NCBI GenBank assembly: GCA_035516895.1
Contig: DATIZY010000017.1
Coordinates: forward strand, 3,472-67,471
DNA: 64,000 nucleotides
Origin: Thermoanaerobaculia bacterium
GTDB taxonomy: Bacteria > Acidobacteriota > Thermoanaerobaculia > Gp7-AA8
Direction: 5' to 3'
Shown: positions 6,175 to 18,571 of the stretch, in pieces
Layout: each line of letters opens with the position of its first letter
How positions within the stretch are numbered: the first letter of the stretch is position 1
The notes under the pieces: model-generated
Database searches by the model: none
Told to the model about the DNA's origin: nothing
The model's input: only the letters and a program-made list of their open reading frames with translations
Position numbers and translations under genes: made by a program

Positions 6175-6873
6175 CTAGGCACTGACGTGTTCGCGAATGA
6201 AGTCGATCGTGCGGCGGATGATCGCCCGCGAGCGGTCGTCATCATTCAAAAGATCGAAGCCGTGCTCGCCGTTCGGATGGGCCATCACTTCGAGCTCGAT
6301 GTTTCGTGTGAGCGCTTCGCTGATGAATGCATCCACCGACGCGTTCAGCGCCTGGTGATCCTTGCCGGCGCGTGCGATCAGCATCGGCGGACAGTGCGCA
6401 CCGCTGCGCAGGCGCTCGAGCGGTGACGCGAGGATCGCGTAGTACGAAACGAGCGCGCGCACGTTCGGCTGATCGAAGCCGAAACTGAGGAAGGGACCGC
6501 CGCCGGAAAATGCCCAGAAGATCAGCCGCTCGGCATCGACCTCCGGCTGCACGCATGCGAACTCGATCGCCTCTTCGACGTCCTTCGTCGCTTGCGCGAT
6601 CGCGCTGCCGAAGAAGCGATGATTGAACGTCATCGCGGCGAAGCCGGACGAGGCCGCGAGCGCGCCGTAATCGCGGAACAGCTGCATGTTCTTCGGCTGG
6701 GCGCCGTCGGGCACCGGACCGCCGTGAATGAAAATGATCGCGGCATTCGGCCGGTCGTCCGGCGCGTAAACGTCGGCGAGGACGCCCGGCGCGTATTCGA
6801 TGTCGCTGCGGACGCGAATGCGGGTTTGCGGCGGACGCAACACCAGCGGCTTCGTTGCAATGGACTCCGGCAT
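6175..6873 (-). CDS. Alpha/beta-hydrolase fold esterase/lipase
   Basis: HGG oxyanion motif (IFIHGGP), nucleophile elbow FSGGG (GxSxG variant), and a conserved acidic/His region near the C-terminus. The start is ambiguous: Met at 6879 or 6873. Confidence 0.65.
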   Translation of the reverse strand: MPESIATKPLVLRPPQTRIRVRSDIEYAPGVLADVYAPDDRPNAAIIFIHGGPVPDGAQPKNMQLFRDYGALAASSGFAAMTFNHRFFGSAIAQATKDVEEAIEFACVQPEVDAERLIFWAFSGGGPFLSFGFDQPNVRALVSYYAILASPLERLRSGAHCPPMLIARAGKDHQALNASVDAFISEALTRNIELEVMAHPNGEHGFDLLNDDDRSRAIIRRTIDFIREHVSA

Positions 6874-6877
6874 GCGC

Positions 6878-7645
6878 ATGCTAACCTTCGCGCTCGTGTC
6901 TCTCTTCCGCAGCGTGGCGGTCTTCTCGCTCCTGTGGCTGCTGAAAGCGCTGAGCAGGATCTTTTATCGCCCCGACTTCGGCTGGATCGGCCCGACGCCG
7001 CGCGATCCATGGGCGGGCATCCGGCTCGTCGTGTTTCTCAATCACACGAGCCTCTTCGAGCCGGTGTTTGTCTGCGGAGTGCCGAACCGCTTCATCTGGC
7101 GTCTCGCCGCGCATGGCGTCATTCCCGCGGCGGCCAAAACGACCGAGCGCCCGCTCGTCGGCATGGTGTTCAAGTTCGTGGCGCACCACGTCGTTCCGAT
7201 CACGCGACAACGCGATCACACGTGGTTCGCGGTGCTCGACCGCATCGATCCGAAGTCGATGGTGGTCATCGCGCCGGAAGGCCGGATGAAGCGCGAGACG
7301 GGCCTCGACCTGCAGGGCAATCCGATGACCGTGCGCGGCGGCGTGGCCGACATCATGCTGTCGATCGAGCGCGGGCGCATGCTGCTCGCGTACAGCGGCG
7401 GTCTGCATCACGTGCAGGTGCCCGGCCATTTGCCGAACGTGTTCGAGCGGGTGCAGATGCGGATCGAGAACCTCGAGATCGCCGACTACATGGCCGAGCA
7501 GATGGCGAAAGGGGGAGCGGGCGAGTTCAAGAAGAGCGTCATTCGCGATCTCGAGGCGCGGCGCGACCGCTACTGCGTCGACGACCGCGAGAGAACGCTC
7601 GTGAATTCGACCGCCGGCATCGGCTCGCTGAACAGAAATCCCTGA
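6878..7645 (+). CDS. Lysophospholipid/1-acyl-glycerol-3-phosphate acyltransferase-like protein (PlsC family)
   Basis: N-terminal transmembrane helix, an NHTSLFEP motif (the NHxxxxD/E acyltransferase block I) and PEGRM (PEGTR-like block III). Starts within a few nt of the divergent hydrolase start. Confidence 0.55.
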   Translation: MLTFALVSLFRSVAVFSLLWLLKALSRIFYRPDFGWIGPTPRDPWAGIRLVVFLNHTSLFEPVFVCGVPNRFIWRLAAHGVIPAAAKTTERPLVGMVFKFVAHHVVPITRQRDHTWFAVLDRIDPKSMVVIAPEGRMKRETGLDLQGNPMTVRGGVADIMLSIERGRMLLAYSGGLHHVQVPGHLPNVFERVQMRIENLEIADYMAEQMAKGGAGEFKKSVIRDLEARRDRYCVDDRERTLVNSTAGIGSLNRNP

Positions 7646-8319
7646 ATGAATTCGCAGCGGTGTTCGCGCAGAAACGCCAGCTGCTCCTCGTTCTCCACCC
7701 CCTCGGCGATCACTTTGAGGCCGAGCTCGTGCGCGAGATCGAGGATGCTGCGGGTGATGGCGCGCGATCGCTCGGACCCTTCGACGCCTTTGACGAACGT
7801 GCCCGGAATCTTGACTCCGTCGACGTCGAGCGTCAGCAGGTGCGACAGCGACGAATGGCCGGTGCCGAAGTCGTCGAGCCAAAGCTCGGCGCCGAGGGAG
7901 CGGATTTCGTCGCCGACGGAGCGGAGATGTTTCGGATTTCTGATGAACGATGTCTCGGTGATCTCGAGATTGAGCCGCGAGATGCCGCCGAGTTTTTTCA
8001 GCCGCTGCGCGAGGCGGCCCTGCTCGAACTCGCGCGGCGAGAGATTCACGTTGAGCCGGAGTCCGTCCCAGCCCGCCGAATCGCGCAGAGCCTGCTGCAT
8101 CATCCACGAGTCGAGGCGGAACATTTCCGGACCTTCCTCGGCTCCGTGCGCGATGGGGACGCCGCTGCGGATCTCGCCGGTCGGACGGCGCGCGCGCAGC
8201 AGCGTCTCGGCCGCGACGATCGTTCGCGAATCGAGCTCGTGAATGGGCTGATAAAAGAGGACGAGCTGCTTCCGGTTCAGCGCGCGGCGGACGCCCGCTC
8301 GAGGTGCGGTCTTCGACAT
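7570..8319 (-). CDS. Stand-alone EAL-domain protein (c-di-GMP phosphodiesterase-like)
   Basis: Carries the QPIhELdsr, NLSPREF, EITET and DDFGTGHSSLS..L motifs, and the KIPGtFV and EGVEnEEQ motifs typical of EAL domains. The start was taken at the internal MSKTAPRAG; the longer upstream ORF region is Arg-rich and not protein-like. Confidence 0.7.
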   Translation of the reverse strand: MSKTAPRAGVRRALNRKQLVLFYQPIHELDSRTIVAAETLLRARRPTGEIRSGVPIAHGAEEGPEMFRLDSWMMQQALRDSAGWDGLRLNVNLSPREFEQGRLAQRLKKLGGISRLNLEITETSFIRNPKHLRSVGDEIRSLGAELWLDDFGTGHSSLSHLLTLDVDGVKIPGTFVKGVEGSERSRAITRSILDLAHELGLKVIAEGVENEEQLAFLREHRCEFIQGFLFSEPMPAVEFTSVLSRSSTQ

Positions 8320-8349
8320 GTCGCCATCAGCCTCTACAATCGGCGCGCC

Positions 8350-8988
8350 ATGCCGGTGGAGATTCTTCGCGTAGAGTCGCGTCGCGCGGCGCGGCAGCGG
8401 CGGATGCAGAAGGTGCAGCATCTGTTCGCGGCGGCGCTGCTGATCACGACGGCCATGCAGCACGGCCTCCGATCGCCGCTGGCGATCGCCGAAATCGCAG
8501 CCGGCGCGCTGTTGATTGCTGCGTTCGTGCGCGAGCGACTGCGCCACGGCCATCACGGCGGCGTGGCGTGGGTCGAGATCGCGGGCGCGGCGATGACGCT
8601 CGTCGAGGCGGTCGAGCGGACGCGCGGCCGTCATCATCTTTCGTTTGTCGTGCTGTCGTTTCTCGCGCCGGCGGTGCTGCTCGTCTTCGCGATCTTCGAC
8701 GCCCGCATCGCCGAAGCGCGCTACCTCAAAGCGGACGAGGACGGTTTCGAGGTCCGGCTTCGGCTCTTCTTCCGGCGCCGCGTGCGATGGAAAGAGATCC
8801 GCGGATTTCGAGCGACGAGCGACGCGATCGAGCTCGAAGGCGCTCGGAACATCTCGTTGCGCGGCATCGTCGATCGGGAGGCCGCGGTGCAGTGGAGTGT
8901 TGAGCAGTTCCGCAAGCGAGGCGTGCCGGAGCTAGAAGACACGGCGGACCAGGAGCAGCGTCGCATAGGCGAGGCCGGCGATCGCTAG
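8350..8988 (+). CDS. Putative membrane protein with bacterial PH-like (bPH_2/YdbT-like) C-terminal domain
   Basis: In-frame ATG at 8350 followed by three hydrophobic helices, then a DGFEVRLRLFFRRRVRWKEIRGF segment resembling bPH_2. It is the 3' portion of a long, otherwise implausible ORF (6592..8988). Confidence 0.4.
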   Translation: MPVEILRVESRRAARQRRMQKVQHLFAAALLITTAMQHGLRSPLAIAEIAAGALLIAAFVRERLRHGHHGGVAWVEIAGAAMTLVEAVERTRGRHHLSFVVLSFLAPAVLLVFAIFDARIAEARYLKADEDGFEVRLRLFFRRRVRWKEIRGFRATSDAIELEGARNISLRGIVDREAAVQWSVEQFRKRGVPELEDTADQEQRRIGEAGDR

Positions 8989-9645
8989 CAGGATCGTCCA
9001 CTTGTTGTCTTTGATCACCTGCCAGAGCGACGCCTGCTCCGGCGGTTTGTTCTGCTTCCGCGCGAGCACGTCCATGCGCGTATGTTCCTGCCGCAGGTCC
9101 TGCATGGTGTCGTTGACGCGCTGCTCGAACTGCTTGAGCGGCTGCGGCGATTCGGCGGGCACCGCGACGCCGCGCTGCGTGTCGATCTTCACGAGGTCCG
9201 AGGGCACCGGAGCGACAACGCGATCGCCGTGCTCGTCGCTCGTGACGTCGTACGCGCCCTGGTCGAAGAAGAGCACGGTCGGCCCCACGTTCGAGTCTTT
9301 GACGAAGAGCACGTTCTCTGCACCGGGACGAAACGCCGGGACGCCGATGCTGGTCTGATGCAGCGAACCGATGTGCCCGCCTGGAGTCACGATTGTGACT
9401 TCCGGTGCGGCCGATCCTTTCATCGCCTTCTCGACCTGGAATGTCGAGTACGTCAGGATCCAGCGGCCGCTGGGATCGAACCGCGATTCCTGGCTGACGC
9501 ATTTGCCGAGGATGATGGCCGCGGCTTTGTCGACTTTCTGCTGGAACGAAGCGGCCACGGCCAAGGAAGCCTGAAGAGCCGGCGCGGTGAAGAGAAGCGC
9601 GGAGAAGGCGAGGGCGCAGACTCGGTTATTTGAAGTCATGTCCAC
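8932..9645 (-). CDS. Secreted protein with C-terminal transmembrane anchor (hypothetical)
   Basis: Signal peptide MDMTSNNRVCALAFSALLFTAPALQA and C-terminal hydrophobic helix WTILLAIAGLAYATLLLV. Last gene of the minus-strand surface-protein operon. Confidence 0.5.
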   Translation of the reverse strand: MDMTSNNRVCALAFSALLFTAPALQASLAVAASFQQKVDKAAAIILGKCVSQESRFDPSGRWILTYSTFQVEKAMKGSAAPEVTIVTPGGHIGSLHQTSIGVPAFRPGAENVLFVKDSNVGPTVLFFDQGAYDVTSDEHGDRVVAPVPSDLVKIDTQRGVAVPAESPQPLKQFEQRVNDTMQDLRQEHTRMDVLARKQNKPPEQASLWQVIKDNKWTILLAIAGLAYATLLLVRRVF

Positions 9646-9678
9646 CGATGAACAAGCAATCGACAGGCCACGTTCCCG

Positions 9679-11070
9679 TCATGGACGCGGGGGCAAAACG
9701 ATGGCCCTTTCTTCGCTCGTTTCAATGACTTCCGTCTTATTGCCGATGCCGTGAACTCGCCAGCGGGCCGCCTTCCTGATCCTGCCGCGTGGGAGGAGAT
9801 CGATGTCGGGCCGGACCATCGGGAACGAGGTCTTCGGCGTCTGCGCGGCGAAGAGCACGCTGCCTGTGTCATCGAGAATTTCGAAGACGAAAAACGACGC
9901 GGCGCCCGGCTGAGACTCGTGCCACGAGAACGCGAGCTGACCGGCGAGCGTCACGCCGTCGAACGGCGCGTCGGGGATGATCGTCGGCCCCGTCGGTGCG
10001 GGGCCGAGGAGGATCGCTCCGGGACCGCTGTTCGATGCTGAGGCTGTCGATGCGACCGCGGCCACCGGGCCGCGTGCTGCAGTCAATGAGACAAGCACGT
10101 CGACGGTTGCTTCGGTCGGCGACGTGAACAGCGGCGTGCCGACGATCGTCACGTCTTTGCCGAATGTGATCGTCGTCTCCGATGAAAAGTTCTTGCCGAT
10201 GAGGTGAAGTGTGTATCGCTGGCCGGCCTGCAGCTTCGAGGGAGAGATGACATCGATGCGCGGCCCGATCACCATCTCGGTCGGACGCACCGGCTGCGGC
10301 ACTTCCGGTTGCGGCACGGGCACCGGTTCGGGCTGCGGTGCGGGTGGGGGCGGCGTGATGCGACTGCCAGCCGCTTCGCCGGATGGTTGCGGCTGTGGCT
10401 GCGGCTGCGGCTGTGGAACGGGAGCGGGCTGCGGCTGTGGCTGCGTGCCGGGGAGTTTTCCTGCCGTCGGTTCGCCGGTCGGCTGCGGAACCGGAGTCGG
10501 CTGCGGAACCGGAACAGGCTTTGGCTCTGGAGGAGGTTGCGGCGTCGGAACGGGCGCCGGTTGCGGCTGAGGAACAGGCGTGGGTTGTGGCTGCGGCTGC
10601 GGTTGCGGTTGCGGTTGTGGTTGTGGTTGTGGTTGCGGCTGCGGCTGCGGTTGTGGTTGTGGCTGTGGCTGTGGTTGTGGTTGCGGCTGCGGTTGCGGTT
10701 GTGGCTGCGGTTGCGGCTGTGGTTGTGGCTGCGGCTGCGGGTTCACGGTGAACGCATTCGCAACGCGCACCGGCGTCGGCGCGGCAGCCGTCGCCACGGG
10801 CGTGTAGACGAATGTGTACGCGCTCGTTGGCGCCGTCGGCGAGATCTGAATCGTGAATTGCAGGAACCTGTTCGGATTGCGCGGATTGGAAACGGCGATT
10901 TTGCCCGCTGGTTCGAACGAGATCCCGCCGCCCGGTGGCCACGTCACGTTTGTCGTGATGTCGAGAGTCTCGCCCTGGATGCCGCTGGACGGCGTGAGCG
11001 CGACCTTCGGAAGGGCGACCGACGCCGCGATGAGCAGCGCGCCGAGGGCGACGAAGAAGAGACGCTTCAT
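9679..11070 (-). CDS. Secreted PQ-repeat surface protein: two globular domains joined by a (PQ)n / Pro-rich linker
   Basis: Signal peptide MKRLFFVALGALLIAASVA. About 26 perfect PQ dipeptide repeats flanked by PxP-rich sequence, and a C-terminal beta-rich domain. The start ATG overlaps the stop of the upstream giant gene (ATGA), implying translational coupling. Confidence 0.6.
   Translation of the reverse strand: MKRLFFVALGALLIAASVALPKVALTPSSGIQGETLDITTNVTWPPGGGISFEPAGKIAVSNPRNPNRFLQFTIQISPTAPTSAYTFVYTPVATAAAPTPVRVANAFTVNPQPQPQPQPQPQPQPQPQPQPQPQPQPQPQPQPQPQPQPQPQPQPQPQPQPQPTPVPQPQPAPVPTPQPPPEPKPVPVPQPTPVPQPTGEPTAGKLPGTQPQPQPAPVPQPQPQPQPQPSGEAAGSRITPPPPAPQPEPVPVPQPEVPQPVRPTEMVIGPRIDVISPSKLQAGQRYTLHLIGKNFSSETTITFGKDVTIVGTPLFTSPTEATVDVLVSLTAARGPVAAVASTASASNSGPGAILLGPAPTGPTIIPDAPFDGVTLAGQLAFSWHESQPGAASFFVFEILDDTGSVLFAAQTPKTSFPMVRPDIDLLPRGRIRKAARWRVHGIGNKTEVIETSEERAIVLPPRP
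10584..10741. repeat. Perfect hexanucleotide microsatellite (GGYTGY)n of ~26 units, encoding (PQ)26 on the minus strand
   Basis: Directly visible as ggttgtggctgcggctgcggttgcggttgcggttgtggttgtgg... Degenerate copies extend upstream to ~10300. Confidence 0.85.
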
Positions 11071-14000
11071 TGGCTCACCGCGGACGTCGTCGAAGGATTG
11101 TTCGTCTTGGTTGCGTTGATGCTCGCCGGCACGGCGACCACCGTCGTTCCGTTCATCGCCTGGCCGCTGCTCGCGCCCCAGTTGAACGACATGGTCCCGA
11201 CGTATTGGTGAATGAACTTCGGCGGCGGGATCTGCCCTGTGGAGCTGCTGCGGTTCGCGTCGGCTGAGAACTGCAGGGACAAGTGCTGCGTGAGGCGCTG
11301 CGGCGTCCATGTGACGAGCGCCTGGTAATCCTCGCTGCGCGACTCCAGGTTCGTCAGGTCATTTTTCGAACGGCTGAAATTGACGCGGGGCTGCAGCATG
11401 ATTCCCCAGTTTGGGAGCGTCCAGCTCGGCTGCAGTGACGCGAGATACTGATCCGTGGTCCCGACGGCGGAGCTGCCCGCCGTACGCGTGCCCGACAGCA
11501 CAGCCGACAGATTGAGGTACGGCGTCGGAGTGCCGCCGAAGGTCAGCGTCGCCGCGCTCGTGGTCGAGTCGGAGATCGGTGTGATGCGATCGTGAAGTTT
11601 CTGCACCGTCATGGTCTGCGACAAATTGAAGATCCCGATCGCCTCGGTCACCGTGCCGTTGGCTCCCGATTGGGTGCGATCGAGATCCGGCAGTCCGTAG
11701 CTGGGATTGCCCGAGCCGCGATCGGCCGTCCAGTTCCCGCCTAACGCGAGCGTCGTTCGCTGGCCGATGGAGGTCGTGACCGCCAGGACTCCGCCATTTT
11801 CGCGATTGCGCGGAAGGATCGCGCCCGACGAGTTGCCGTCGCGGAGCGTTCGCAGCTGCAGCGAGAGCGACGTGCGATTGATGACCTTGGTCAGCGAGAG
11901 ATTCGCGCCCGTTCGATCGGGAACGCCGCCGGGTGTGAGTGCGCGGTTCGCCGGATTGACGTAGTCCGCCTCGGTTCGCCGCAGATTGAGCACATATGCG
12001 AACGTTCCCCAGTTGCCGGTCGCGTCGAGCCGCAGCGCGCTGCCCTCGTGTTTCGGTCCGACGGTGGTGGGGTTCGGGTCGAAGCCGCCGTGCGATCCTT
12101 CGAAGATCAGCGTCAGCTTCGGATCGAAGATGTACTTCGCGAAGACGCCGAACGCTTTGCCGACTCCGCCGGCGGAGTTCGGGCCGGCGTCGTCCGTGAC
12201 GCGGAAACCCATCAGCCGGAAGTCCCACTTGTCGTTCGGCTCGGTCTGCAGGGCCGCGGCGCGGATGATCGTCTTCGGACCGAAGTCTCCCGCGAGAACG
12301 CCGGCCGGCTTTGTGCCGAAGGTCTCATATCCCGAGGCGATCATGTGGAAGAGGTGGAGGCGGCCTTCGACGCCGCCGCGCGCGACGCCTGTCGCGAGCA
12401 GCTCCGACTGATCGAGAAAATCGGGCGCGGCGTAACCGATCTTCGCTTCCGGCTGCACGAGGCCCTGCTGCCGCGTGAAATCAGTCAGCCAGTTGCGGCT
12501 CTCCTGCACGGTCTTGTTCGGGTCGGCGAGATCGTGGCGCACCGACATGTCGCCGGTGACTTTCGCTCCCTTGGCGTTCTCGGCGAGGTCGGTTTGCGCG
12601 GAGAACTGCGTGCGCGCGGCATTCGGCTGTCCCGGCGCATCGCCGCCGGCGGCGGTGATCGTGCCGTTCGGCGTCACCGCCCAATCTTTTTGCAGCGATG
12701 GCGCGGCAGGCTGCGCCGCTTCGGGAGCGACCTCCACGTCGAAGCTCCACGTCGTGACCGCGCCCGCGAGCGACAGCCGGACCGAGTGCGTGCCGTTTGC
12801 GAGCGGCAGGAGCGAGTCGTAGTTGATCGAAGCCGCGTCGATTTTCGAGACATTCGTGACGTCGGTCTGATCGAGAGTCATCGCGACGTCCTGCGCTTTC
12901 ACCGTGCCGCTCCATGTCGCGCTGATGTGCGGCTGGTTCGTTGCGACTTTCGATCCGTCCGCCGGCTGCTGATTCGTGACGGCGGGCTTCTGCTGCACGA
13001 GAGCGATCGGCTGCTTCGCGGGCGCGCGCCCGACGTTCGCCGTCGGCGATGCGCCTAACACAACGCCGCCGGGCCCGATCGCCGTCACACGGACGGACGT
13101 GCCGCCGACGCCCGGCGGAATCGCGAAGTCGCTGGCTGCGGTGAGCGCCGAATAGACGACGTTGCCGGCGGCATCGAGCACGTCCACGCGGTACAGCAGC
13201 CCGCTGACGCCGCCGCGCCAGCGCACGTGCCGCTGCTGCACGGTCGCGGTGAGATCGACGTGCTGCGGCACGATCGCGAAGCGCTGCCACTCCGTCGGCT
13301 CGCTTTCGGTTTCGCCGGCGAACACGGCACGGACGCGCCAGCGATGAATGCCCGGCCCGATCTCCTGCAGCGTCCGGGCGCTCGGCTTCCATTGCGCGTC
13401 CGACAGCCGGAAGCGGCGCGGCAGGAGATCGTTGTCGATCTCCACGACGTAGCCGCTGCTGTTCGGAACGAGCGACCAGCGGAACAGCGGCGACGCGCTT
13501 CCGATCACCATGCCGTCGCGCGGCGCGAGCAGCGTCAGGCGCGAGACGCTGTTCGGCGCCATCAGCACGTGCAGCGAAGGTGCGGCGGCGAATTGCGGCG
13601 ACTCGATCTGCAGCTCGAGCGTGTGCGCGCCCTCGTACGAGATCGGCAGCGGCAGATGCGTGCGGACTTCGGCCGGATATCCGCCGCCGACGTTCACCGT
13701 GAATCGATCGAACGGCACGCCGTCGAACTTCCAGACGCCGATGATCGTGCCCGTTCCGGTCGTGGCCAGCAGGCCGCGGGGAAAGACGTTTTGCGACGGC
13801 GCGATCATCGTTCCTTCCGCCGGGAAAACGATCGCCGCGGTCGTGACGCCGAGGGGCGCGGCGATCGAGCCGCGCGGGTAGACGAGAAGCGTCGCGGTTG
13901 CGCTGCCGCCGTCGGGATTCGTCAGCATCAGCGTCGTCGCTCCCGGCGGCGCCTCGGCGATGACGCTCATCGTCACATCGGCGATTTCCGGCGTGATGAC

Positions 14001-16664
14001 GTTGACATTCTCGATGCGGACGCCGGGGTTGACGACCGACACGCGTGCACCCGGCTCGAAGAAGCGGCCTAACAAACGCTCGACGATCGAGCGCTCGCCC
14101 GTCGCGACCGCCGGCGGAACGACGGTGGTAATCACGGGACGCGGAGGCAGAATGCTGAGTGCGACGTCGACGAAATGCGTCGGATCGCTGTTGCCGATGA
14201 AGCGGAGCGTGGCCGGACCCACCGTCGCGTTCGCGGCGATGTCGATCTCGACCTGCTGCGTCTGCCCTGGCGCAATCGTGAACGATGGCGGATTCAGCGA
14301 CACGCCCGGAGGCGGAGTCGCCGTGATCGCGACGCCGCCGGTGAACGCGTTCGATCCGACGACGCCGATCGTCACATTGCCGCTGCTGCCGGCCGCGATC
14401 GAAGTCGCGGATGGCGCGGCGGTGAGCGCGTAATCGGGGCGGCCGCTGACGTTGATGTTCAGCGTCGCGGTCCTTGGGCCGCTGACACCGGCTGCGGTTC
14501 CGGAGAACAACACGCTGCCGGAACTCACGAGTGTGGAGGTGCCGATCGAGATCGTGACGTTGAGCGGAGTGCCCGGAGTCAGCGTGAATGCCGATGGAGT
14601 CACCGAAACGCCCGCAGTCGGGGACGTTGTGACGCTGACCGGACCCGAAAAACCGTTGAGGCCCGTCGCCAGCACGCTCACCTGCATGCTCGCCGATTGC
14701 GCGAGCGAGATCATCGACGGCGAGACCGAGAGTGTGAAGTCGGGCGACCCGGTGATCGTGATGAGGACCGGCGCGGTGTGCGTGCCGACGCCGGTTGCGG
14801 TGCCCGTGAACACGCCGCTGAATGTCGCGGGAGCCGCGCCCGGCGCGATCTTCACCGTGACCGTTTGCGATCCGCCGGCCGGTATCGTGAAGGCCGAAGG
14901 CGTGAAGGTGACGTCGGCGCTGCCCGGCGACGTGACGGACACGGAACCGGTGAATCCGTTCAGCGGTTGCGTCGAGACGGTGAGCGTCGACGTTCCGCCG
15001 GAGGCGATCGAAAGGGAGGAGGGATCAGCGGTGAGAGTGAAGTCGGGGCCGGCGACGACGTTCACCGCGATCGGAGCGGTGCGCGAGCCGGTGATGCCGG
15101 GCGCGGTTCCGGTGAACACGCCGTTGTGCAGCGCCGGCGTCGCGTTGGTCGCGGCGCTGATCGTCACGGTTTGCGAGGCGCCGGGCAGCAGAGAGAACGT
15201 CTGCGGCGAGAACGCGATGCCTGCCAGCGCCGGCGCGTTGACCGTGATGCTGCCGGCGAATCCGTTCACTCCCGCGGCGGAGACGTTCACCGTCGTGCTC
15301 TGCCCCGGAGCAATCGTGACGCTCGGCGGCGCGACGGTGAGTCGGAAATCGGGCGCAGCGACGACTGTGATCGTGACGTTCTGCGTCTTCGTCGTGCCGG
15401 ATGCCGGCGTGAAGGTGAACGTCGAGGTGTACGTTCCCGGCGCGACGTTGCTCGCGGCCTGAGCGACGAACGTCGCCGGCGCCGCGCTGCTCGTCGGAGT
15501 GAACGTGATTCCCGGCGGAGCGGCGGGCGTGACGGTGACCGTGCTGGTGAAGCACGCGTTCGGCGTGATCGACGCGTTGATCGATTGTCCTCCGCCGCCG
15601 GCGGTCAGCGTGATCGCGTTCGGGATGGCGGCCGGCGTGTAGTCGGGCGCGGTGACGGTGATCGAGAGGTTGACGTTCTTGTTGATGTTCGCGGCGGGAT
15701 CGGAAACGTTCAGGACCGCGATGTACGTCCCCGGCGCGGCAGTCCCCGCGTCGACGTTGAACGGAAGCGACTGGTTCGGCGGCATCGCCGCGGCGGCGGG
15801 AAGCGCACTGATGTTGACCCCCGCTGGAATCGAGGTGAACGCGACGCGCGGTGTGCCGCTGTAGCCGTTGACCGGAGCGAGATTGATCGCATCGGAGGCC
15901 GGCGCGCCGCCCTGACAAACGTTGATCGCAGGATTGCTGAAGATCGCCGAGATGTCGGGCTGCTGCACGATGATCGTCAGCGCGTTCGGAAATACCTTCT
16001 GAACTCCAAGCTCGTCGACGCCAGTGAGCGTGCCGCTGTACGCTCCCGGCGTCGCCCCTGCGCCTAACGAGAACGTGAACGTCAGCGGGTTGTACGGTTG
16101 TGGCGTCGTCTGCGCCGGAGGCACGTTGATGAACGACGGGAATCCGCTGAACGAGTACGTGAGCTGTTTCGCGCCGAAGCCGGGATCGGGTTTCGTCGTC
16201 ACGGTCACCGACTGCGCCGTCCCGCCGATGACCAGCGTCGTCGGGTTCGGAGCGACGCTCGCGGTGTACGACGGAGTGTTGACGACGAGTGTGACGGTCG
16301 TCGTGCCCGCGCCGAACGCATCGCGGAGAGTGATGGGATACGTGCCTGGGGTCGTGCCGGCGCCGACCGCGAATCGAAACGATGTCGACGCCGATGTCGA
16401 GTTGAGCGTGTACGGATAGGTCACCGGCGACGGCAGCGTGTTGACGCCGGCCGGCAGTCCGCCGACGACCACGGTTCCGGTGGCATTGACGCTGCCGGTC
16501 GCATAGGTGAGCGTGACTGCGACGGCCGGAGTGGTCTGCGTCGGAAGGGCGCTGACCATCGCGGGGACGGCATTCACGATCGCGTACGCAATCGGGACAG
16601 CGCAGAGAATCAGACCTGTCCAGAATGCGCGCCGAAAAACCACTCCACCGGGTCGAATGTCCAT
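11067..16664 (-). CDS. Giant (1865 aa) secreted cell-surface protein with >=7 tandem Ig-like repeats and a C-terminal beta-rich domain
   Basis: Signal/anchor at N-terminus. Repeated ~100-aa units begin PDF(T/R)L(T/S)... or PDY... and contain G(F/S)(T/A/S)GS..V and GVFTGTA blocks. The C-terminal ~530 aa is Ser/Thr/Asn/Gly-rich with alternating hydrophobic residues, possibly a beta-barrel or beta-helix. Confidence 0.8.
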   Translation of the reverse strand: MDIRPGGVVFRRAFWTGLILCAVPIAYAIVNAVPAMVSALPTQTTPAVAVTLTYATGSVNATGTVVVGGLPAGVNTLPSPVTYPYTLNSTSASTSFRFAVGAGTTPGTYPITLRDAFGAGTTTVTLVVNTPSYTASVAPNPTTLVIGGTAQSVTVTTKPDPGFGAKQLTYSFSGFPSFINVPPAQTTPQPYNPLTFTFSLGAGATPGAYSGTLTGVDELGVQKVFPNALTIIVQQPDISAIFSNPAINVCQGGAPASDAINLAPVNGYSGTPRVAFTSIPAGVNISALPAAAAMPPNQSLPFNVDAGTAAPGTYIAVLNVSDPAANINKNVNLSITVTAPDYTPAAIPNAITLTAGGGGQSINASITPNACFTSTVTVTPAAPPGITFTPTSSAAPATFVAQAASNVAPGTYTSTFTFTPASGTTKTQNVTITVVAAPDFRLTVAPPSVTIAPGQSTTVNVSAAGVNGFAGSITVNAPALAGIAFSPQTFSLLPGASQTVTISAATNATPALHNGVFTGTAPGITGSRTAPIAVNVVAGPDFTLTADPSSLSIASGGTSTLTVSTQPLNGFTGSVSVTSPGSADVTFTPSAFTIPAGGSQTVTVKIAPGAAPATFSGVFTGTATGVGTHTAPVLITITGSPDFTLSVSPSMISLAQSASMQVSVLATGLNGFSGPVSVTTSPTAGVSVTPSAFTLTPGTPLNVTISIGTSTLVSSGSVLFSGTAAGVSGPRTATLNINVSGRPDYALTAAPSATSIAAGSSGNVTIGVVGSNAFTGGVAITATPPPGVSLNPPSFTIAPGQTQQVEIDIAANATVGPATLRFIGNSDPTHFVDVALSILPPRPVITTVVPPAVATGERSIVERLLGRFFEPGARVSVVNPGVRIENVNVITPEIADVTMSVIAEAPPGATTLMLTNPDGGSATATLLVYPRGSIAAPLGVTTAAIVFPAEGTMIAPSQNVFPRGLLATTGTGTIIGVWKFDGVPFDRFTVNVGGGYPAEVRTHLPLPISYEGAHTLELQIESPQFAAAPSLHVLMAPNSVSRLTLLAPRDGMVIGSASPLFRWSLVPNSSGYVVEIDNDLLPRRFRLSDAQWKPSARTLQEIGPGIHRWRVRAVFAGETESEPTEWQRFAIVPQHVDLTATVQQRHVRWRGGVSGLLYRVDVLDAAGNVVYSALTAASDFAIPPGVGGTSVRVTAIGPGGVVLGASPTANVGRAPAKQPIALVQQKPAVTNQQPADGSKVATNQPHISATWSGTVKAQDVAMTLDQTDVTNVSKIDAASINYDSLLPLANGTHSVRLSLAGAVTTWSFDVEVAPEAAQPAAPSLQKDWAVTPNGTITAAGGDAPGQPNAARTQFSAQTDLAENAKGAKVTGDMSVRHDLADPNKTVQESRNWLTDFTRQQGLVQPEAKIGYAAPDFLDQSELLATGVARGGVEGRLHLFHMIASGYETFGTKPAGVLAGDFGPKTIIRAAALQTEPNDKWDFRLMGFRVTDDAGPNSAGGVGKAFGVFAKYIFDPKLTLIFEGSHGGFDPNPTTVGPKHEGSALRLDATGNWGTFAYVLNLRRTEADYVNPANRALTPGGVPDRTGANLSLTKVINRTSLSLQLRTLRDGNSSGAILPRNRENGGVLAVTTSIGQRTTLALGGNWTADRGSGNPSYGLPDLDRTQSGANGTVTEAIGIFNLSQTMTVQKLHDRITPISDSTTSAATLTFGGTPTPYLNLSAVLSGTRTAGSSAVGTTDQYLASLQPSWTLPNWGIMLQPRVNFSRSKNDLTNLESRSEDYQALVTWTPQRLTQHLSLQFSADANRSSSTGQIPPPKFIHQYVGTMSFNWGASSGQAMNGTTVVAVPASINATKTNNPSTTSAVSQ
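14160..16280. repeat. Tandem ~290-300-bp coding repeats (Ig-like domain units) inside the giant surface-protein gene
   Basis: Protein-level periodicity of ~97-105 aa (PDFTLTADPSSLSIASGG..., PDFTLSVSPSMISLAQSAS..., PDYALTAAPSATSIAAG...) maps to roughly this DNA interval. Confidence 0.6.
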
Positions 16665-16700
16665 CTGCCGCGACTCCCCGACTCGTTTTGGACGAGGGCG

Positions 16701-17348
16701 CTAGTGTAGTTGCCGCGCGATGAAATCCGCAACGACCGCGATCGATTCCGGCGTCACGAAGTGCCCCATCGGGAACTCGTGATACTCCGGCTCGACGCCG
16801 TGACTCTCGAGCACGCGCCGCATGCGCCGTGCCGCGAGCACCGGAATCACCTCGTCCTCCGTCCCGTGCACGATGAGCACGGGGATGTCGCGCGAGAACG
16901 GCGGCGGGTCGTCCTCGTTCAGCGCGCCGCTCATGACGACGATTCCTGCCGGCTTCTTCTGCAATCGAAAGCCGGCGTCGAGCGACATCAGCCCTCCCTG
17001 CGAGAATCCCCCGAGAATCATCGCATCCGGCGGCGTGGCGTAGCGGTCACGAAGTTCATCTATGAATTTGATTAACAATTCTCGTGAACGTTTTAGCGAG
17101 CCCGGCTCCGCGGGCCAGCCGTCGAACCACGTGTAGCCGAATGTGAACCCGGGCGCCGGCTCGAACGGCTCCGGCGCGTTGGGAAAAACAAAGCGGCAGC
17201 CGCTGCCCATCATCGGCGCAAGGTCGCTCAGATCCTTCGCATCGGCGCCGCGGCCGTGCAGCACGATCACCAGCGGAAGTTCGGTCGAATCAACGGCCCC
17301 GTCTGGCGCCCTAAGTTCATACCGCAGTGAGAGTTCGCCTTCGCGCAT
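16701..17348 (-). CDS. Phospholipase/carboxylesterase-family alpha/beta hydrolase
   Basis: VIVLHGRGAD, GFSQGG (GxSxG nucleophile), and Asp/His positions (LIVHGTEDEV..., MGHFV) matching the carboxylesterase/PHB-depolymerase-like fold. Start set at the internal Met so that it does not cover the pilT RBS. Confidence 0.65.
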   Translation of the reverse strand: MREGELSLRYELRAPDGAVDSTELPLVIVLHGRGADAKDLSDLAPMMGSGCRFVFPNAPEPFEPAPGFTFGYTWFDGWPAEPGSLKRSRELLIKFIDELRDRYATPPDAMILGGFSQGGLMSLDAGFRLQKKPAGIVVMSGALNEDDPPPFSRDIPVLIVHGTEDEVIPVLAARRMRRVLESHGVEPEYHEFPMGHFVTPESIAVVADFIARQLH

Positions 17349-17389
17349 TTCGCTGTACAATAATGCCTTAATCCAGCGAGGAGACATCC

Positions 17390-18571
17390 GTGCACATCAA
17401 CGACCTGCTGAAAATTGCCGCCGAACGGCGCGCGTCCGACCTCCACATCAAGGTCGGTTCGCACCCCGTCATCCGCGTCGACGGCGAGCTCACTCCGCTC
17501 GTGGAGCTGAAGCGTTTGATGCAGGAAGACACGATCGCCATGGCGTTCTCGATCATGTCTTCGCGGCAGAAGGAAAAGTTCAAAAATAATTACGAAATCG
17601 ATATCGCCTATTCTGTCCCCGGCCTCGGCCGTTTCCGCTGCAACATCTTCCAGCAGCGCGGCACGGTCGGCATGGTCCTCCGCGTCATCCCGGTCAAGAT
17701 CCTCTCGATCCGCGAGCTGATGCTGCCCGTTGTCCTCGAAAGGATCGCCGAAGAGCGGCGCGGGTTGATTCTCTGCACCGGAACGACCGGCTCGGGCAAG
17801 TCGACGACGCTCGCCGCGATGATCGACTACATCAACACGCACCGCACCGAGCACATCATGACGGTCGAGGACCCGATCGAGTTCCTCCACCGCGACAAAA
17901 AATCGATCGTCAATCAGCGCGAAGTCGAAGTCGACACGAAGTCGTTCTCCGGCGCGCTCCGATCGGCACTGCGCCAGGACCCCGACGTCATCCTCGTCGG
18001 CGAAATGCGCGACTACGAGACGATCGAGACCGCGCTGACCGCCGCCGAAACGGGCCACCTCGTGTTCTCGACGCTGCACACGATGGACGCGACCGAGACG
18101 GTCAACCGCATCATCTCGGTCTTCCCGCCGCACCAGCAGAAGCAGATCCGTTTGCAGCTCGCGGCCGTGCTCAAAGCCGTCGTCTCCCTGCGACTTCTCC
18201 CGCGCGCCGACGGCCTCGGCCGCGTTCCGGCGGCGGAAGTGCTCATCTCGACCGCGTACATCCGCGACTGCATCGAGAACAAAGAGAAGACGAAGCTGAT
18301 CAAGGACGCGATCGCGCAGGGCACGTCGCAATACGGCATGCAGACGTTCGACCAGTCGCTCTACACGCTCTACAAGAACGGACTGATCACGCTCGACGAA
18401 GCGCTGCGCCGCGCCTCGAACCCGGACGAATTCCGCCTCAAGCTGCAGGGCATTCAGTCGACCTCGGACATCTCCAAGGAAGAGATGGAGCAGAAGCTCA
18501 CGGTGGGCAGCGCAGGCGAGGCCGATCCGTTCTCGGACGATTCGCCGTTCGACTTCTCGAACCAGGTCTAG
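17390..18571 (+). CDS. pilT: Type IV pilus retraction ATPase PilT (twitching motility protein)
   Basis: DLHI N-terminal motif, Walker A GTTGSGKSTTLAAMI, Asp box and His box (LVGEMRD, TGHLVFSTLHT), and length (393 aa) all match PilT. GTG start preceded by AGGAG. Confidence 0.9.
   Translation: MHINDLLKIAAERRASDLHIKVGSHPVIRVDGELTPLVELKRLMQEDTIAMAFSIMSSRQKEKFKNNYEIDIAYSVPGLGRFRCNIFQQRGTVGMVLRVIPVKILSIRELMLPVVLERIAEERRGLILCTGTTGSGKSTTLAAMIDYINTHRTEHIMTVEDPIEFLHRDKKSIVNQREVEVDTKSFSGALRSALRQDPDVILVGEMRDYETIETALTAAETGHLVFSTLHTMDATETVNRIISVFPPHQQKQIRLQLAAVLKAVVSLRLLPRADGLGRVPAAEVLISTAYIRDCIENKEKTKLIKDAIAQGTSQYGMQTFDQSLYTLYKNGLITLDEALRRASNPDEFRLKLQGIQSTSDISKEEMEQKLTVGSAGEADPFSDDSPFDFSNQV

What the first reader, a model, noticed from the sequence alone, without database searches (positions are those of the whole stretch)
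8932..17348. Surface-protein operon: esterase, 1865-aa giant Ig-repeat protein, PQ-linker protein and anchored protein, with ATGA translational coupling
Four co-directional minus-strand genes are packed with gaps of 36, -4 and 33 nt. The giant protein has a signal/anchor sequence, at least seven ~100-aa PDF(T/R)LT-type Ig-like repeats, and a ~530-residue C-terminal Ser/Thr/Asn-rich beta-type domain of unknown nature (a beta-barrel anchor or beta-helix is possible). Its stop overlaps the start of a second secreted protein whose two domains are bridged by (PQ)26. The architecture is reminiscent of adhesin/two-partner or autotransporter-like systems, but the parts do not match a characterised family by eye. 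A pilT gene diverges immediately upstream (17390).
Basis: partly seen in the sequence, partly recalled or inferred. Interest (0 to 1): 0.6.

Follow-up and report, generated by a model that had tools for sequence, protein, structure and literature searches.

The report
Giant Ig-repeat protein with 26-strand barrel
The 1865-residue protein belongs to an undescribed family of soil-bacterial outer-membrane proteins that join a long chain of Ig-like domains to an unusually large (about 26-strand) membrane barrel, and the "four-gene operon" around it is really a two-gene cassette remnant sitting between two unrelated housekeeping-type genes.

Summary
There are four co-directional minus-strand genes with gaps of 36, -4 and 33 nt, an ATGA overlap, 8 Ig-like repeats, (PQ)26 and a divergent pilT.

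The giant's C-terminal ~505 residues are predicted with high confidence to form a ~26-strand outer-membrane beta-barrel. They have no Pfam, NCBIfam or PDB sequence match. A conserved five-domain Ig-like "core" precedes the barrel. Core plus barrel defines a family of about 186 clusters, all from uncultured Acidobacteriota and Gemmatimonadota.

The esterase and the "anchored" protein do not belong to this system. In relatives that lack the giant they sit directly next to each other.

The PQ protein is a short form (463 aa) of a 2050-2445-aa partner. In relatives that partner is followed by a ~655-aa fn3 protein. The window lacks about 7 kb of that module. The short form recurs in a second lineage, so it is not a one-off.

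Most likely mechanism (inferred): a barrel-anchored surface fibre with a translationally coupled partner. It resembles an autotransporter but belongs to no known type V class. A translocon role or a periplasmic role is not excluded.

The parts
16701..17387 (-). Cytoplasmic alpha/beta-hydrolase (Abhydrolase_2 carboxylesterase); likely start M14 at 17348. A flanking backbone gene, not part of the giant module.
   Evidence: Pfam PF02230, E 2.1e-25, and no signal sequence. Directly adjacent to the anchored-protein gene in L028-L031, which lack the giant.
16536..16664 (-). Giant protein aa 1-43: N-terminal Sec-type signal or anchor segment.
   Evidence: Read from the sequence. Orthologues have typical cleavable signals.
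14154..16535 (-). Giant aa 44-837: eight ~100-aa Ig-like repeats forming a variable stalk. Six of them open with PD[FYI].
   Evidence: Repeat alignment and HMM. Weak fn3_5, ASH and HYDIN-type Ig hits. Repeat number ranges from 0 to about 13 across the family.
12735..14153 (-). Giant aa 838-1310: conserved core of five beta-sandwich domains (IPT/TIG-like, domain X, 'FRW' fn3-like, 'LYRV' domain, CopC-like Ig).
   Evidence: Found in essentially all full-length family members; some consist only of signal + core + barrel. AF2 pLDDT about 85-95.
12696..12734 (-). Giant aa 1311-1323: Pro/Ala-rich flexible linker between core and barrel.
   Evidence: pLDDT below 50 at model residues 478-485. Across the family the linker is 7-58 aa, median 20.
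11178..12695 (-). Giant aa 1324-1829: predicted ~26-strand outer-membrane beta-barrel ending in a beta-signal-like motif YVGTMSFNW.
   Evidence: AF2 models. Foldseek hits only large outer-membrane barrels, best TM to MtrB. Strand and turn analysis. Conserved terminal W in 41 of 54 sequences. No Pfam, NCBIfam or PDB match.
11067..11177 (-). Giant aa 1830-1865: disordered Ser/Thr/Asn-rich tail plus the stop codon. TGA at 11067-11069 overlaps the ATG of the next gene.
   Evidence: pLDDT below 40. Tail length is 6-68 aa in the family. ATGA junction.
9679..11070 (-). Short-form partner ('PQ protein', 463 aa). Signal; N-terminal Ig-like domain (aa ~20-106); Pro-rich linker aa 107-262 including (PQ)26 (nt 10585-10740); IPT domain (aa 263-355); FxW domain (aa 356-463).
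   Evidence: It matches only the N-terminal third of the 2050-2445-aa partners in relatives. The same short form occurs in L032. Its IPT+FxW pair is homologous to the giant core (hhalign 96%, E 3.6e-9).
9640..9670 (-). Conserved ~30-nt leader upstream of the anchored-protein gene. It marks the right-hand boundary of the inserted module.
   Evidence: The same motif precedes the gene in L003, L027, L028, L030 and L031, whichever gene lies upstream.
8932..9645 (-). Anchored protein (likely start 9639; 235 aa): signal + ~150-aa beta domain + C-terminal transmembrane helix. A flanking backbone gene of a large unannotated family.
   Evidence: At least 697 relatives at 55-75% identity, all 'hypothetical'. 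No Pfam or PDB match. Adjacent to the esterase in relatives without the giant.
17390..18571 (+). Divergent PilT-like ATPase; backbone gene.
   Evidence: T2SSE, E 3.4e-45. Same position in L003, L028, L030 and L032.

Best explanation
The region is a mosaic.

1. Backbone. A conserved gene pair, a cytoplasmic esterase and a small membrane-anchored exported protein, belongs to the backbone alaS-recX-spermine-synthase-like-pilT | est-anch | acyltransferase-DUF72.

2. Module. A separable module lies between that pair. Its full form has three genes: a giant barrel protein, a 2050-2445-aa secreted partner, and a ~655-aa fn3 protein. The window carries a short form: the giant plus a 463-aa partner that ends right after its IPT+FxW domains, and no fn3 gene.

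3. The giant. It consists of a Sec signal, 8 variable Ig-like repeats, a conserved five-domain Ig-like core, a short Pro/Ala linker, a ~26-strand outer-membrane beta-barrel and a disordered tail.

Shown here: the gene structure, the domain structure, the family and its distribution, the synteny, and the predicted fold.

Inferred mechanism:
- The protein is exported by Sec.
- Its barrel is inserted into the outer membrane by BAM. It has a conserved beta-signal-like last strand.
- The conserved core docks on or in the barrel.
- The variable Ig array projects from the cell surface as a fibre of roughly 30-50 nm, acting in adhesion or as surface matrix. This is an autotransporter-like topology, in which the linker or last core domain passes through the wide barrel.
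- The partner is made in fixed proportion through ATGA coupling. It probably joins the giant through its paralogous IPT+FxW pair, and its 150-residue polyproline-like spacer holds a second Ig head at a distance.

My confidence is about 0.85 for the architecture and the mosaic gene history. It is about 0.5 for surface exposure and the fibre role.
For: Barrel:
- AF2 of aa 838-1865 with a 54-sequence alignment gives pLDDT 86.1 and pTM 0.83, with 26 long antiparallel strands. The barrel-only model agrees.
- Foldseek returns only large outer-membrane barrels at probability 1.0 and about 10% identity: TonB receptors, ushers, MtrB (best TMq 0.52), SlpA and LptD.
- Strands alternate hydrophobic and polar residues. 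Even-to-odd connections are 2-5 aa and odd-to-even connections are 4-19 aa.
- The last strand carries a conserved aromatic end.

Family:
- 186 representatives have E<=1e-3. The domain is always C-terminal, in proteins of 900-2400 aa.
- The core is conserved in all full-length members.
- 23 loci come from Acidobacteriota and Gemmatimonadota MAGs.

Mosaic:
- est-anch are adjacent in L028-L031.
- The module lies between them in L003, L026/L027, L032 and L033.
- The DNA is collinear with L003 except for about 7 kb.
- No remnant of the missing part is present in the window.
- The short form is shared with L032, whose giant is 75% identical.

Coupling: the next co-directional ORF starts -4 to +20 nt after the barrel gene in about 17 loci.

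Partner-core homology: hhalign 96%, E 3.6e-9.

For surface exposure (inference):
- Thirteen to about 19 Ig-like domains (roughly 45-75 nm) exceed periplasmic width.
- Repeat number varies from 0 to 13.
- The Ig array is less conserved (51-68%) than the core and barrel (60-76%).
- Related loci L017/L019 encode a neighbour with a similar head plus Ricin lectin domains.
Against: - No coordinates or PAE could be inspected, so the location of the core (lumen, outer face or periplasmic face) is unknown.
- By the short-turn rule, the barrel's N-terminal end lies on the periplasmic side. Some family members have linkers of only about 7-10 aa, which is barely enough to cross a barrel.
- The most conserved barrel motifs sit in the long loops, which is unusual for exposed loops.
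- Family members with no Ig array at all exist. The core+barrel therefore has a function of its own that a simple stalk model does not explain.
- Everything comes from uncultured MAGs. There is no expression, localisation or phenotype data.
- The direction of the event at the est-anch site (insertion or loss) is not resolved.
Confidence: 0.55

Rival explanations
1. Export platform. The conserved core+barrel is a translocon, usher-like or two-partner-like, that moves the translationally coupled downstream protein across the outer membrane. The giant's own Ig array is an accessory.
For: - A secreted protein is tightly coupled (-4 to +20 nt) in about 17 loci.
- The partners vary (Ig/IPT giants, unrelated proteins in Gemmatimonadota) while core+barrel stays conserved. 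This is the pattern of a transporter with variable cargo.
- Minimal members consist of signal + core + barrel only.
- A 26-strand lumen is as wide as or wider than a 24-strand usher pore. Ushers rank among the best Foldseek hits (E 4e-9).
- Long loops and core are both highly conserved.
Against: - L035 has no co-directional partner.
- No chaperone, POTRA, TPS or usher signatures were found.
- The full model gains nothing over the barrel alone when compared with complete ushers (TMt 0.31 in both).
- The window's partner has lost its C-terminal ~1600 aa, yet the giant is retained intact in two lineages.
Confidence: 0.2
2. Periplasm-facing scaffold. The barrel anchors the protein in the outer membrane while the core and Ig array stay in the periplasm, as in LptD, SlpA or OmpM. 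It would act as an envelope tether or an assembly scaffold.
For: - Both barrel termini fall on the short-turn (periplasmic) side.
- Linkers are as short as about 7-10 aa.
- pTM 0.83 implies that the core is docked to the barrel rather than free (my inference from the score).
- Known C-terminal large barrels with N-terminal extensions (LptD, SlpA) are among the structural hits.
Against: - Arrays of 13 to about 19 Ig-like domains are longer than a periplasm is wide.
- Repeat number varies from 0 to 13 between orthologues, which is unexpected for a fixed-distance tether.
- No peptidoglycan-binding or inner-membrane-binding domain (SLH, OmpA, LysM) was found.
Confidence: 0.15
3. The four genes form one dedicated adhesin operon of a known autotransporter, two-partner or T9SS kind.
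For: The genes are co-directional and tightly spaced, with no convincing terminator between them. Co-transcription is therefore plausible.
Against: - est-anch are adjacent without the giant in relatives.
- The giant family occurs elsewhere without them.
- The esterase has no signal.
- No model of any known secretion-system barrel or sorting domain matches.
Confidence: 0.05
4. The C-terminal domain is not a membrane barrel. It would be, for example, a soluble beta-solenoid or an AlphaFold artefact.
For: - Only predictions are available.
- The hydrophobic faces of several strands are weak.
Against: - The second model, built from 54 sequences, has pLDDT around 90 across the domain.
- All top structural matches are outer-membrane barrels.
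- The pattern is a regular series of hairpins with short turns on one side.
- The terminal strand motif is conserved.
Confidence: 0.03

Closest known systems
Classical monomeric autotransporters (type Va secretion)
   Same: One polypeptide with a Sec signal, an N-terminal passenger-like region and a C-terminal outer-membrane beta-barrel. The passenger is large, repetitive and variable.
   Different: - The barrel has about 26 strands and 505 aa, against 12 strands and about 280 aa.
- No PF03797 match.
- The linker is disordered and Pro/Ala-rich rather than an alpha-helix.
- The passenger is built of Ig-like sandwiches, not a beta-helix.
- A conserved five-domain core has no counterpart.
- A translationally coupled partner gene is present.
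Inverse autotransporters (type Ve: intimin, invasin)
   Same: A chain of bacterial Ig-like domains attached to an outer-membrane barrel. Repeat number varies.
   Different: The domain order is reversed: here the barrel is C-terminal. Barrel size is 26 strands against 12. There is no IAT_beta or LysM match.
Chaperone-usher pathway ushers (FimD, PapC)
   Same: A large barrel (24 strands) combined with Ig-like/beta-sandwich domains. The lumen is wide enough for folded Ig-type domains. These are among the best structural matches (Foldseek E 4e-9, TMt 0.38-0.45 for the barrel).
   Different: - No usher Pfam match.
- No periplasmic chaperone or pilin genes.
- The Ig-like domains all lie N-terminal to the barrel rather than inserted into it or C-terminal to it.
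- The full model aligns no better to complete ushers than the barrel alone does.
26-strand barrels that sheath a partner (MtrB with MtrA/MtrC; LptD with LptE)
   Same: Same predicted strand count. MtrB gives the highest TM-score (0.52 by query, 0.46 by target). These barrels work with a protein lodged in the lumen, and an adjacent gene encodes the partner.
   Different: - No sequence similarity (about 11% identity, no PF11854 or PF04453 match).
- No haem-binding motifs: the giant has 3 Cys and the PQ protein has none.
- No LptD-type jellyroll.
- The N-terminal extension is a 1300-aa Ig-like array.
Two-partner secretion (type Vb: TpsB/TpsA)
   Same: A barrel gene sits next to a very large secreted partner gene and is expressed together with it.
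   Different: TpsB proteins are 16-strand Omp85 barrels with POTRA domains, and TpsA proteins carry a TPS domain. None of these features is present.

Membership tests
Classical autotransporter (type Va) | C-terminal 12-strand beta-barrel matching Pfam Autotransporter (PF03797), about 250-300 aa | tested here: not met
   No hit in the giant at E<=0.1, nor in 9 barrel homologues at E<=10. The model has about 26 strands over 505 aa.
Classical autotransporter (type Va) | Signal peptide plus N-terminal passenger in the same polypeptide | tested here: met
   Signal-like N-terminus and 1300 aa of Ig-like domains upstream of the barrel.
Classical autotransporter (type Va) | Linker segment running through the barrel lumen, with the passenger on the cell surface | not testable with these tools
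The linker is 13 aa with low confidence and spans 7-58 aa in the family.
Inverse autotransporter (type Ve) | N-terminal 12-strand barrel followed by C-terminal Ig-like passenger | tested here: not met
   The barrel is C-terminal, and no IAT_beta or Big_1 hit was found.
Two-partner secretion (type Vb) | Omp85-type 16-strand barrel with POTRA domains; partner with an N-terminal TPS domain | tested here: not met
   No Omp85, ShlB, POTRA or TPS/haemagglutination hits in the giant, the PQ protein or the long partners.
Chaperone-usher usher | Usher Pfam domain (PF00577) with PapC_N/PapC_C, and linked chaperone and pilin genes | tested here: not met
   No Pfam hits. The neighbouring genes are not chaperones or pilins. 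Only the barrel fold resembles an usher.
TonB-dependent receptor | Plug domain (PF07715) plus 22-strand TonB_dep_Rec barrel | tested here: not met
   No Pfam or NCBIfam hits. About 26 strands and no plug-like insert are predicted. Foldseek similarity is limited to the barrel (TMq 0.28-0.43).
T9SS cargo | C-terminal Por_Secre_tail sorting domain (~80-100 aa beta-sandwich) | tested here: not met
   No PF18962 or TIGR04183 hit. The C-terminus is a 505-aa barrel plus a disordered tail.
MtrB/PioB porin-cytochrome | MtrB_PioB barrel (PF11854) with adjacent multihaem cytochromes (CxxCH motifs) | tested here: not met
   No Pfam hit. The giant has 3 Cys and the PQ protein has none. Only strand number and TM-score resemble MtrB.
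SLH-anchored barrel proteins (SlpA/OmpM) | N-terminal SLH domain and coiled coil upstream of a large C-terminal barrel | tested here: not met
   No SLH hit. The N-terminal part is all-beta and Ig-like.
New family defined here (Ig-core + ~26-strand barrel) | Conserved ~470-aa five-domain core followed by a Pro/Ala linker and a ~505-aa C-terminal barrel with a YV[AG]T-h-x-h-[RH]-W end | tested here: met
   The window protein is the query. Homologues score 1e-229 to 1e-30 with the same layout.
PEP-CTERM / exosortase substrate (considered for the anchored protein) | C-terminal PEP motif + transmembrane helix + Arg cluster (TIGR02595) | tested here: not met
   No NCBIfam hit. There is no PEP motif directly before the helix.

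The most novel reading that the evidence does not exclude
The family could be a new single-polypeptide secretion and display class, a "26-strand autotransporter" or "auto-usher". A very wide barrel, gated by one of its own conserved Ig-like core domains, would export or display a chain of folded Ig-like domains. It would also dock or export a translationally coupled partner protein. This would fall outside type Va-Ve, chaperone-usher and T9SS, and it is confined to Acidobacteriota and Gemmatimonadota.
Probability: 0.25. Interest if true: 0.8.

Novelty: new variant of a known kind. Interest (0 to 1): 0.55.

Why it matters
Acidobacteriota and Gemmatimonadota are among the most abundant soil bacteria. 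Almost nothing is known about how they build their cell surface or attach to particles and roots.

This family has about 186 sequence clusters and no annotation. It joins an adhesin-like Ig array to a barrel twice the size of any autotransporter barrel, with a highly conserved multi-domain core and a coupled partner gene.

If the array is surface-exposed, this raises the question of how a large Ig-type passenger crosses the outer membrane through its own barrel. If it is not, the family is a new kind of envelope-spanning scaffold or translocon. Either result would add a class to the catalogue of outer-membrane protein architectures.

The work also gives a practical correction. The esterase and the anchored protein should not be annotated as part of an adhesin operon.

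Tried and rejected
- Pfam and NCBIfam scans of all four proteins, of family members and of nine barrel homologues at E<=10 found no outer-membrane-protein, secretion-system or sorting-domain family.
- PDB sequence searches with the anchored protein, the family profile and a long partner gave nothing relevant.
- The search for related loci with the broad alignment A2 failed because it had no conserved 7-10-column stretch. The narrower alignment A1 worked.
- BLASTP of the giant against itself did not detect the repeats. An HMM did.
- The promoter and terminator scan was uninformative.
- Rfam and tRNA scans found nothing, so there is no c-di-GMP riboswitch or similar element ahead of the giant.
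- tblastn for the missing partner C-terminus, the fn3 gene or a second giant copy elsewhere in the window found nothing.
- Five literature searches returned no description of this family. The held library is incomplete.
- The minimum linker length (about 7-10 aa) was examined as a test of whether the linker threads the lumen. It was inconclusive.
- A PEP-CTERM reading of the anchored protein was rejected.
- A functional link to pilT or the EAL gene was rejected. Both are backbone genes that are also present, or variably absent, in relatives regardless of the module.
Full report
OBSERVATION

- esterase, 16701-17387;
- a 1865-aa giant, 11067-16664;
- a 463-aa protein, 9679-11070;
- a 237-aa protein, 8932-9645.

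The junction sequences give gaps of 36, -4 and 33 nt. The middle junction is an ATGA overlap of the giant's stop codon with the next start codon. Codon-position GC (GC3 0.78-0.84, against 0.43-0.56 at position 2) supports all four as real genes.

Two starts should probably be moved:
- The esterase probably starts at M14 (17348), because the L003 orthologue aligns only from residue 15.
- The small protein probably starts at the ATG at 9639, because MTSNN.. aligns with MPSNN.. and MTSNN.. in relatives.

The other details also check out:
- The giant has eight ~100-aa repeats at aa 44-838. An HMM built from repeats 5-8 recovers repeats 2-4 independently.
- (PQ)26 lies at aa 111-162 within a 156-residue Pro-rich linker.
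- The divergent gene at 17390 is a PilT-sized T2SSE ATPase.

WHAT THE GIANT IS

Neither Pfam nor NCBIfam recognises the last 565 residues. Nine homologues scanned at E<=10 also hit no outer-membrane family.

A word-indexed search found only 8 relatives. A profile built from them (A1), run exhaustively against 1.84 billion cluster representatives, found 186 proteins with E<=1e-3 and 134 with E<=1e-30. In every hit longer than a fragment, the domain sits at the C-terminus of a 900-2400-aa protein.

AlphaFold2 on the domain alone, with 9 sequences, gave an all-beta hairpin series at pLDDT 75.5. With a 54-sequence alignment (A3) of aa 838-1865 the model reached pLDDT 86.1 and pTM 0.83. It shows:
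- five beta-sandwich domains;
- a 13-residue low-confidence linker;
- 26 long antiparallel strands;
- a disordered 37-residue tail.

Foldseek against the PDB returns only large outer-membrane barrels at probability 1.0 and about 10% identity: TonB-dependent receptors, PapC/FimD ushers, MtrB, SlpA and LptD. The 26-strand MtrB gives the best TM-score, 0.52. No solved structure shares the overall architecture; every TMq for the full model is 0.31 or lower. A family profile finds no relevant sequence relative in the PDB.

Many strands alternate hydrophobic and polar residues. Connections from even to odd strands are 2-5 residues, and those from odd to even strands are 4-19. By the usual rule for outer-membrane proteins (established knowledge: short periplasmic turns, long external loops), both ends of the barrel lie on the periplasmic side.

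The last strand carries a conserved Y-V-[AG]-T-h-x-h-[RH]-W motif, with W in 41 of 54 sequences. It is followed by a variable 6-68-aa tail.

I take the barrel as well supported, at about 0.9.

THE CONSERVED CORE

The 470 residues before the barrel (aa 838-1310) are an IPT/TIG-like domain, a "domain X", an fn3-like "FRW" domain, a "LYRV" domain and a CopC-like Ig domain. They are conserved in essentially all full-length family members. Some members consist of nothing but signal, core and barrel. The N-terminal Ig-like repeats range from none to about thirteen.

Core plus barrel is therefore the functional unit, and the repeat array is an optional, variable extension. Between orthologues the array is somewhat less conserved (51-68% identity) than the core and barrel (60-76%).

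A pTM of 0.83 for a 1028-residue chain, split about equally between core and barrel, implies a mean inter-body error of only about 6-7 A. This is my calculation from the TM kernel. AlphaFold is therefore predicting the core docked to the barrel rather than dangling from it. I could not see coordinates, so I do not know on which face the core sits or whether a domain fills the lumen.

DISTRIBUTION

A scan of one genome per GTDB species found 23 loci, all in metagenome-assembled genomes:
- 15 Acidobacteriota, including Thermoanaerobaculia and Holophagae;
- 7 Gemmatimonadota;
- one short contig binned as Gammaproteobacteria.

One word-search hit is labelled Vicinamibacterales. Every source name is "hypothetical protein", apart from one stray "DUF4402" and one "cupredoxin-like" label. 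Five full-text searches found no description of the family.

THE NEIGHBOURS: NOT ONE OPERON BUT A MOSAIC

L003 is an Acidobacteriota MAG whose giant is about 60% identical. It is collinear with the window from alaS through pilT, the esterase and the giant, and again from the small anchored protein onward. Where the window has 1.5 kb, however, L003 has 8.5 kb.

In L003 the gene after the giant encodes 2146 aa. Its order of parts is: signal, an N-terminal Ig-like head, IPT repeats, a Pro/Thr/Gln-rich linker, an IPT+FxW pair, and then about 1400 further residues with no database match. A 653-aa fn3 protein follows it, and then the anchored protein.

The same three-gene module is found in two kinds of setting:
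- between the esterase and the anchored protein in L026/L027 and L033;
- in more distant Acidobacteriota without those flanks, as L005-L007, L010 and L011, with partners of 2139-2445 aa conserved along their whole length.

The window's PQ protein matches only the head and the IPT+FxW pair. It stops exactly at the end of the FxW domain..EERAIVLPPRP*, against ..ERPILLPLPPNGFSC.. in L003. No trace of the missing parts exists elsewhere in the window.

This is not a one-off decay. L032 is a forest-soil contig whose giant is 75% identical. It has the same short partner, ending at the same point, with the same ATGA overlap and a PQPQPT-type linker. The folded parts of the window's short partner keep a coding GC3 pattern. 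The short form therefore looks like a maintained variant.

The decisive point for the "operon" claim comes from L028/L029 and L030/L031. These relatives share the backbone alaS-recX-spermine-synthase-like-pilT | esterase ... acyltransferase-DUF72. In them the esterase is followed directly by the anchored protein, 32-90 nt later, and there is no giant.

A ~30-nt leader (TGGCnnAnnGnTTGCTT...ATGnCTTCAAATAACC) precedes the anchored-protein gene in every case. It does so whether the upstream gene is the esterase, the fn3 gene or the PQ gene.

The anchored protein belongs to a large family of its own: at least 697 relatives of about 231 aa, 55-75% identical, with no annotation. The esterase has no signal sequence. 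The giant family occurs in many other contexts without either gene.

The esterase and the anchored protein are therefore backbone genes that flank a separable module. They are probably co-transcribed with it here, since nothing like a terminator separates them. They are not components of it. Whether the module was inserted at this site or lost from the relatives cannot be decided from these data.

THE PARTNER RELATIONSHIP

In about 17 related loci the next co-directional ORF starts between -4 and +20 nt after the barrel gene and encodes a protein with a signal sequence.
- In Acidobacteriota this is the long Ig/IPT partner.
- In Gemmatimonadota and some other loci it is an unrelated secreted protein of 200-720 aa.
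- In L035 there is none.

The partner's IPT+FxW pair is homologous to the IPT and FRW domains of the giant's own core, skipping domain X (hhalign probability 96%, E 3.6e-9). In L005-L011 the partner's N-terminal repeats are of the same type as the giant's. The two proteins are built from the same parts, which suggests that they share a compartment and interact.

MECHANISM

Shown: gene structure, domain structure, the family, synteny and the predicted fold.

Inferred: the giant is exported by Sec, and its barrel is inserted by BAM. The conserved core is docked to the barrel.

I favour, at about 0.5, a surface-display topology like that of an autotransporter. The linker or the last core domain would pass through the wide barrel, and the variable Ig array would project tens of nanometres from the cell. 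My reasons:
- Thirteen to about nineteen Ig-like domains are longer than a periplasm is wide.
- Repeat number varies freely between orthologues.
- Related loci encode a neighbour with a similar head plus Ricin lectin domains.

The short partner would be made in fixed ratio through ATGA coupling. It would attach through its IPT+FxW pair and hold its Ig-like head on a ~150-residue polyproline-type spacer.

Two rivals remain open:
- Export platform (0.2). Core+barrel is an export platform for the coupled partner. This is supported by the conserved-machine, variable-cargo pattern, by the minimal family members and by the usher-sized lumen.
- Periplasmic scaffold (0.15). The whole N-terminal part stays in the periplasm, as in LptD or SlpA. 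This is supported by the periplasmic position of the barrel's N-terminus and by linkers as short as about 7-10 residues.

The unusually high conservation of the long loops fits any model in which they contact the conserved core or a partner.

COMPARISON AND NOVELTY

The layout works like an autotransporter: signal, passenger, C-terminal barrel. It nonetheless fails the defining tests of every class I considered:
- type Va: 12-strand PF03797 barrel, helical linker;
- type Ve: N-terminal barrel;
- type Vb: Omp85 barrel with POTRA domains, TPS domain in the partner;
- ushers: PF00577, plus chaperone and pilin genes;
- TonB-dependent receptors: plug domain;
- T9SS cargo: C-terminal sorting domain;
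- MtrB: multihaem cytochrome partners;
- SLH-anchored barrels: SLH domain.

I classify it as a new variant of a known kind, namely barrel-anchored Ig-repeat envelope proteins. There is roughly a one-in-four chance that it represents a truly new secretion or display class.

Interest is moderate to high for outer-membrane and secretion specialists. It is tempered by the complete lack of experimental data and by my inability to inspect the model's geometry.

Noticed in passing
window 8932-9670 (-); L028 9324-10696; L030 9250-10696: The esterase and the small anchored protein form a conserved adjacent pair in relatives. The anchored protein (signal + ~150-aa beta domain + C-terminal transmembrane helix) belongs to an unannotated family with at least 697 relatives at 55-75% identity. 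A ~30-nt leader upstream of it is conserved whichever gene precedes it.
   Followed up: partly
window 17348-17390: The start codons of pilT (GTG at 17390, + strand) and the esterase (ATG at 17387 or 17348, - strand) are only 2-41 nt apart. Both promoters must therefore lie inside the neighbouring coding sequence. The consensus scan found no sigma-70-like site there.
   Followed up: partly
L003 14300-18165; L027 1851-8003; L033 10467-16679: The ~1400-aa C-terminal region of the long partner proteins is conserved across Acidobacteriota loci. It has no Pfam, NCBIfam or PDB sequence match, and it contains several Cys, unlike the rest of the system. Its fold and role are unknown.
   Followed up: partly
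L018 6264-7178; L020 9285-10244; L004 1032-2694: In Gemmatimonadota loci the gene after the barrel gene encodes a signal-bearing protein with a phage T4 gp19 tail-tube-like domain (E 3e-16). L004 has two small secreted proteins upstream whose N-termini look similar to each other (compared by eye only).
   Followed up: no
L017 3587-7417; L019 3599-7384: Immediately upstream of the barrel gene lies a 1261-1276-aa secreted protein. Its Cys-containing N-terminal head resembles that of the barrel protein, and it carries three Ricin-type lectin domains (E 5e-60). This hints at carbohydrate binding in the system.
   Followed up: no
L001 18-2607 and 2604-5647: In L001 (barrel domain 77% identical to the window's; the most similar barrel homologue found) both the giant and the partner are broken by frameshifts. 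These could be MAG assembly errors or pseudogenes. This partner is of the long type, with IPT repeats instead of a PQ linker.
   Followed up: partly
L002 1343-2877: In a Vicinamibacterales MAG contig the barrel gene is followed, on the opposite strand, by RHS-repeat and DUF6869 genes rather than by a partner.
   Followed up: no
window 7570-8637 (-): An EAL-domain (c-di-GMP phosphodiesterase) gene lies downstream of the anchored protein. It is present in L003, L026/L027 and L032 but absent at this position in L028, L030 and L033, so it is not tied to the giant module.
   Followed up: partly
window 6592-8988 (+), 10204-11211 (+), 14175-16067 (+): Long ORFs of 335-798 aa lie antisense to the real genes. 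They are artefacts of the 65% GC content and have the wrong codon-position GC pattern. They should not be annotated.
   Followed up: yes
window 24480-25727 (-): A secreted 415-aa protein with weak Ig_3 and Ig_7 (CHU_C-associated) hits. An Ig_7-bearing protein sits in the equivalent backbone position (next to alaS) in L028 and L030; its homology to the window protein was not tested. It is unrelated to the giant.
   Followed up: no
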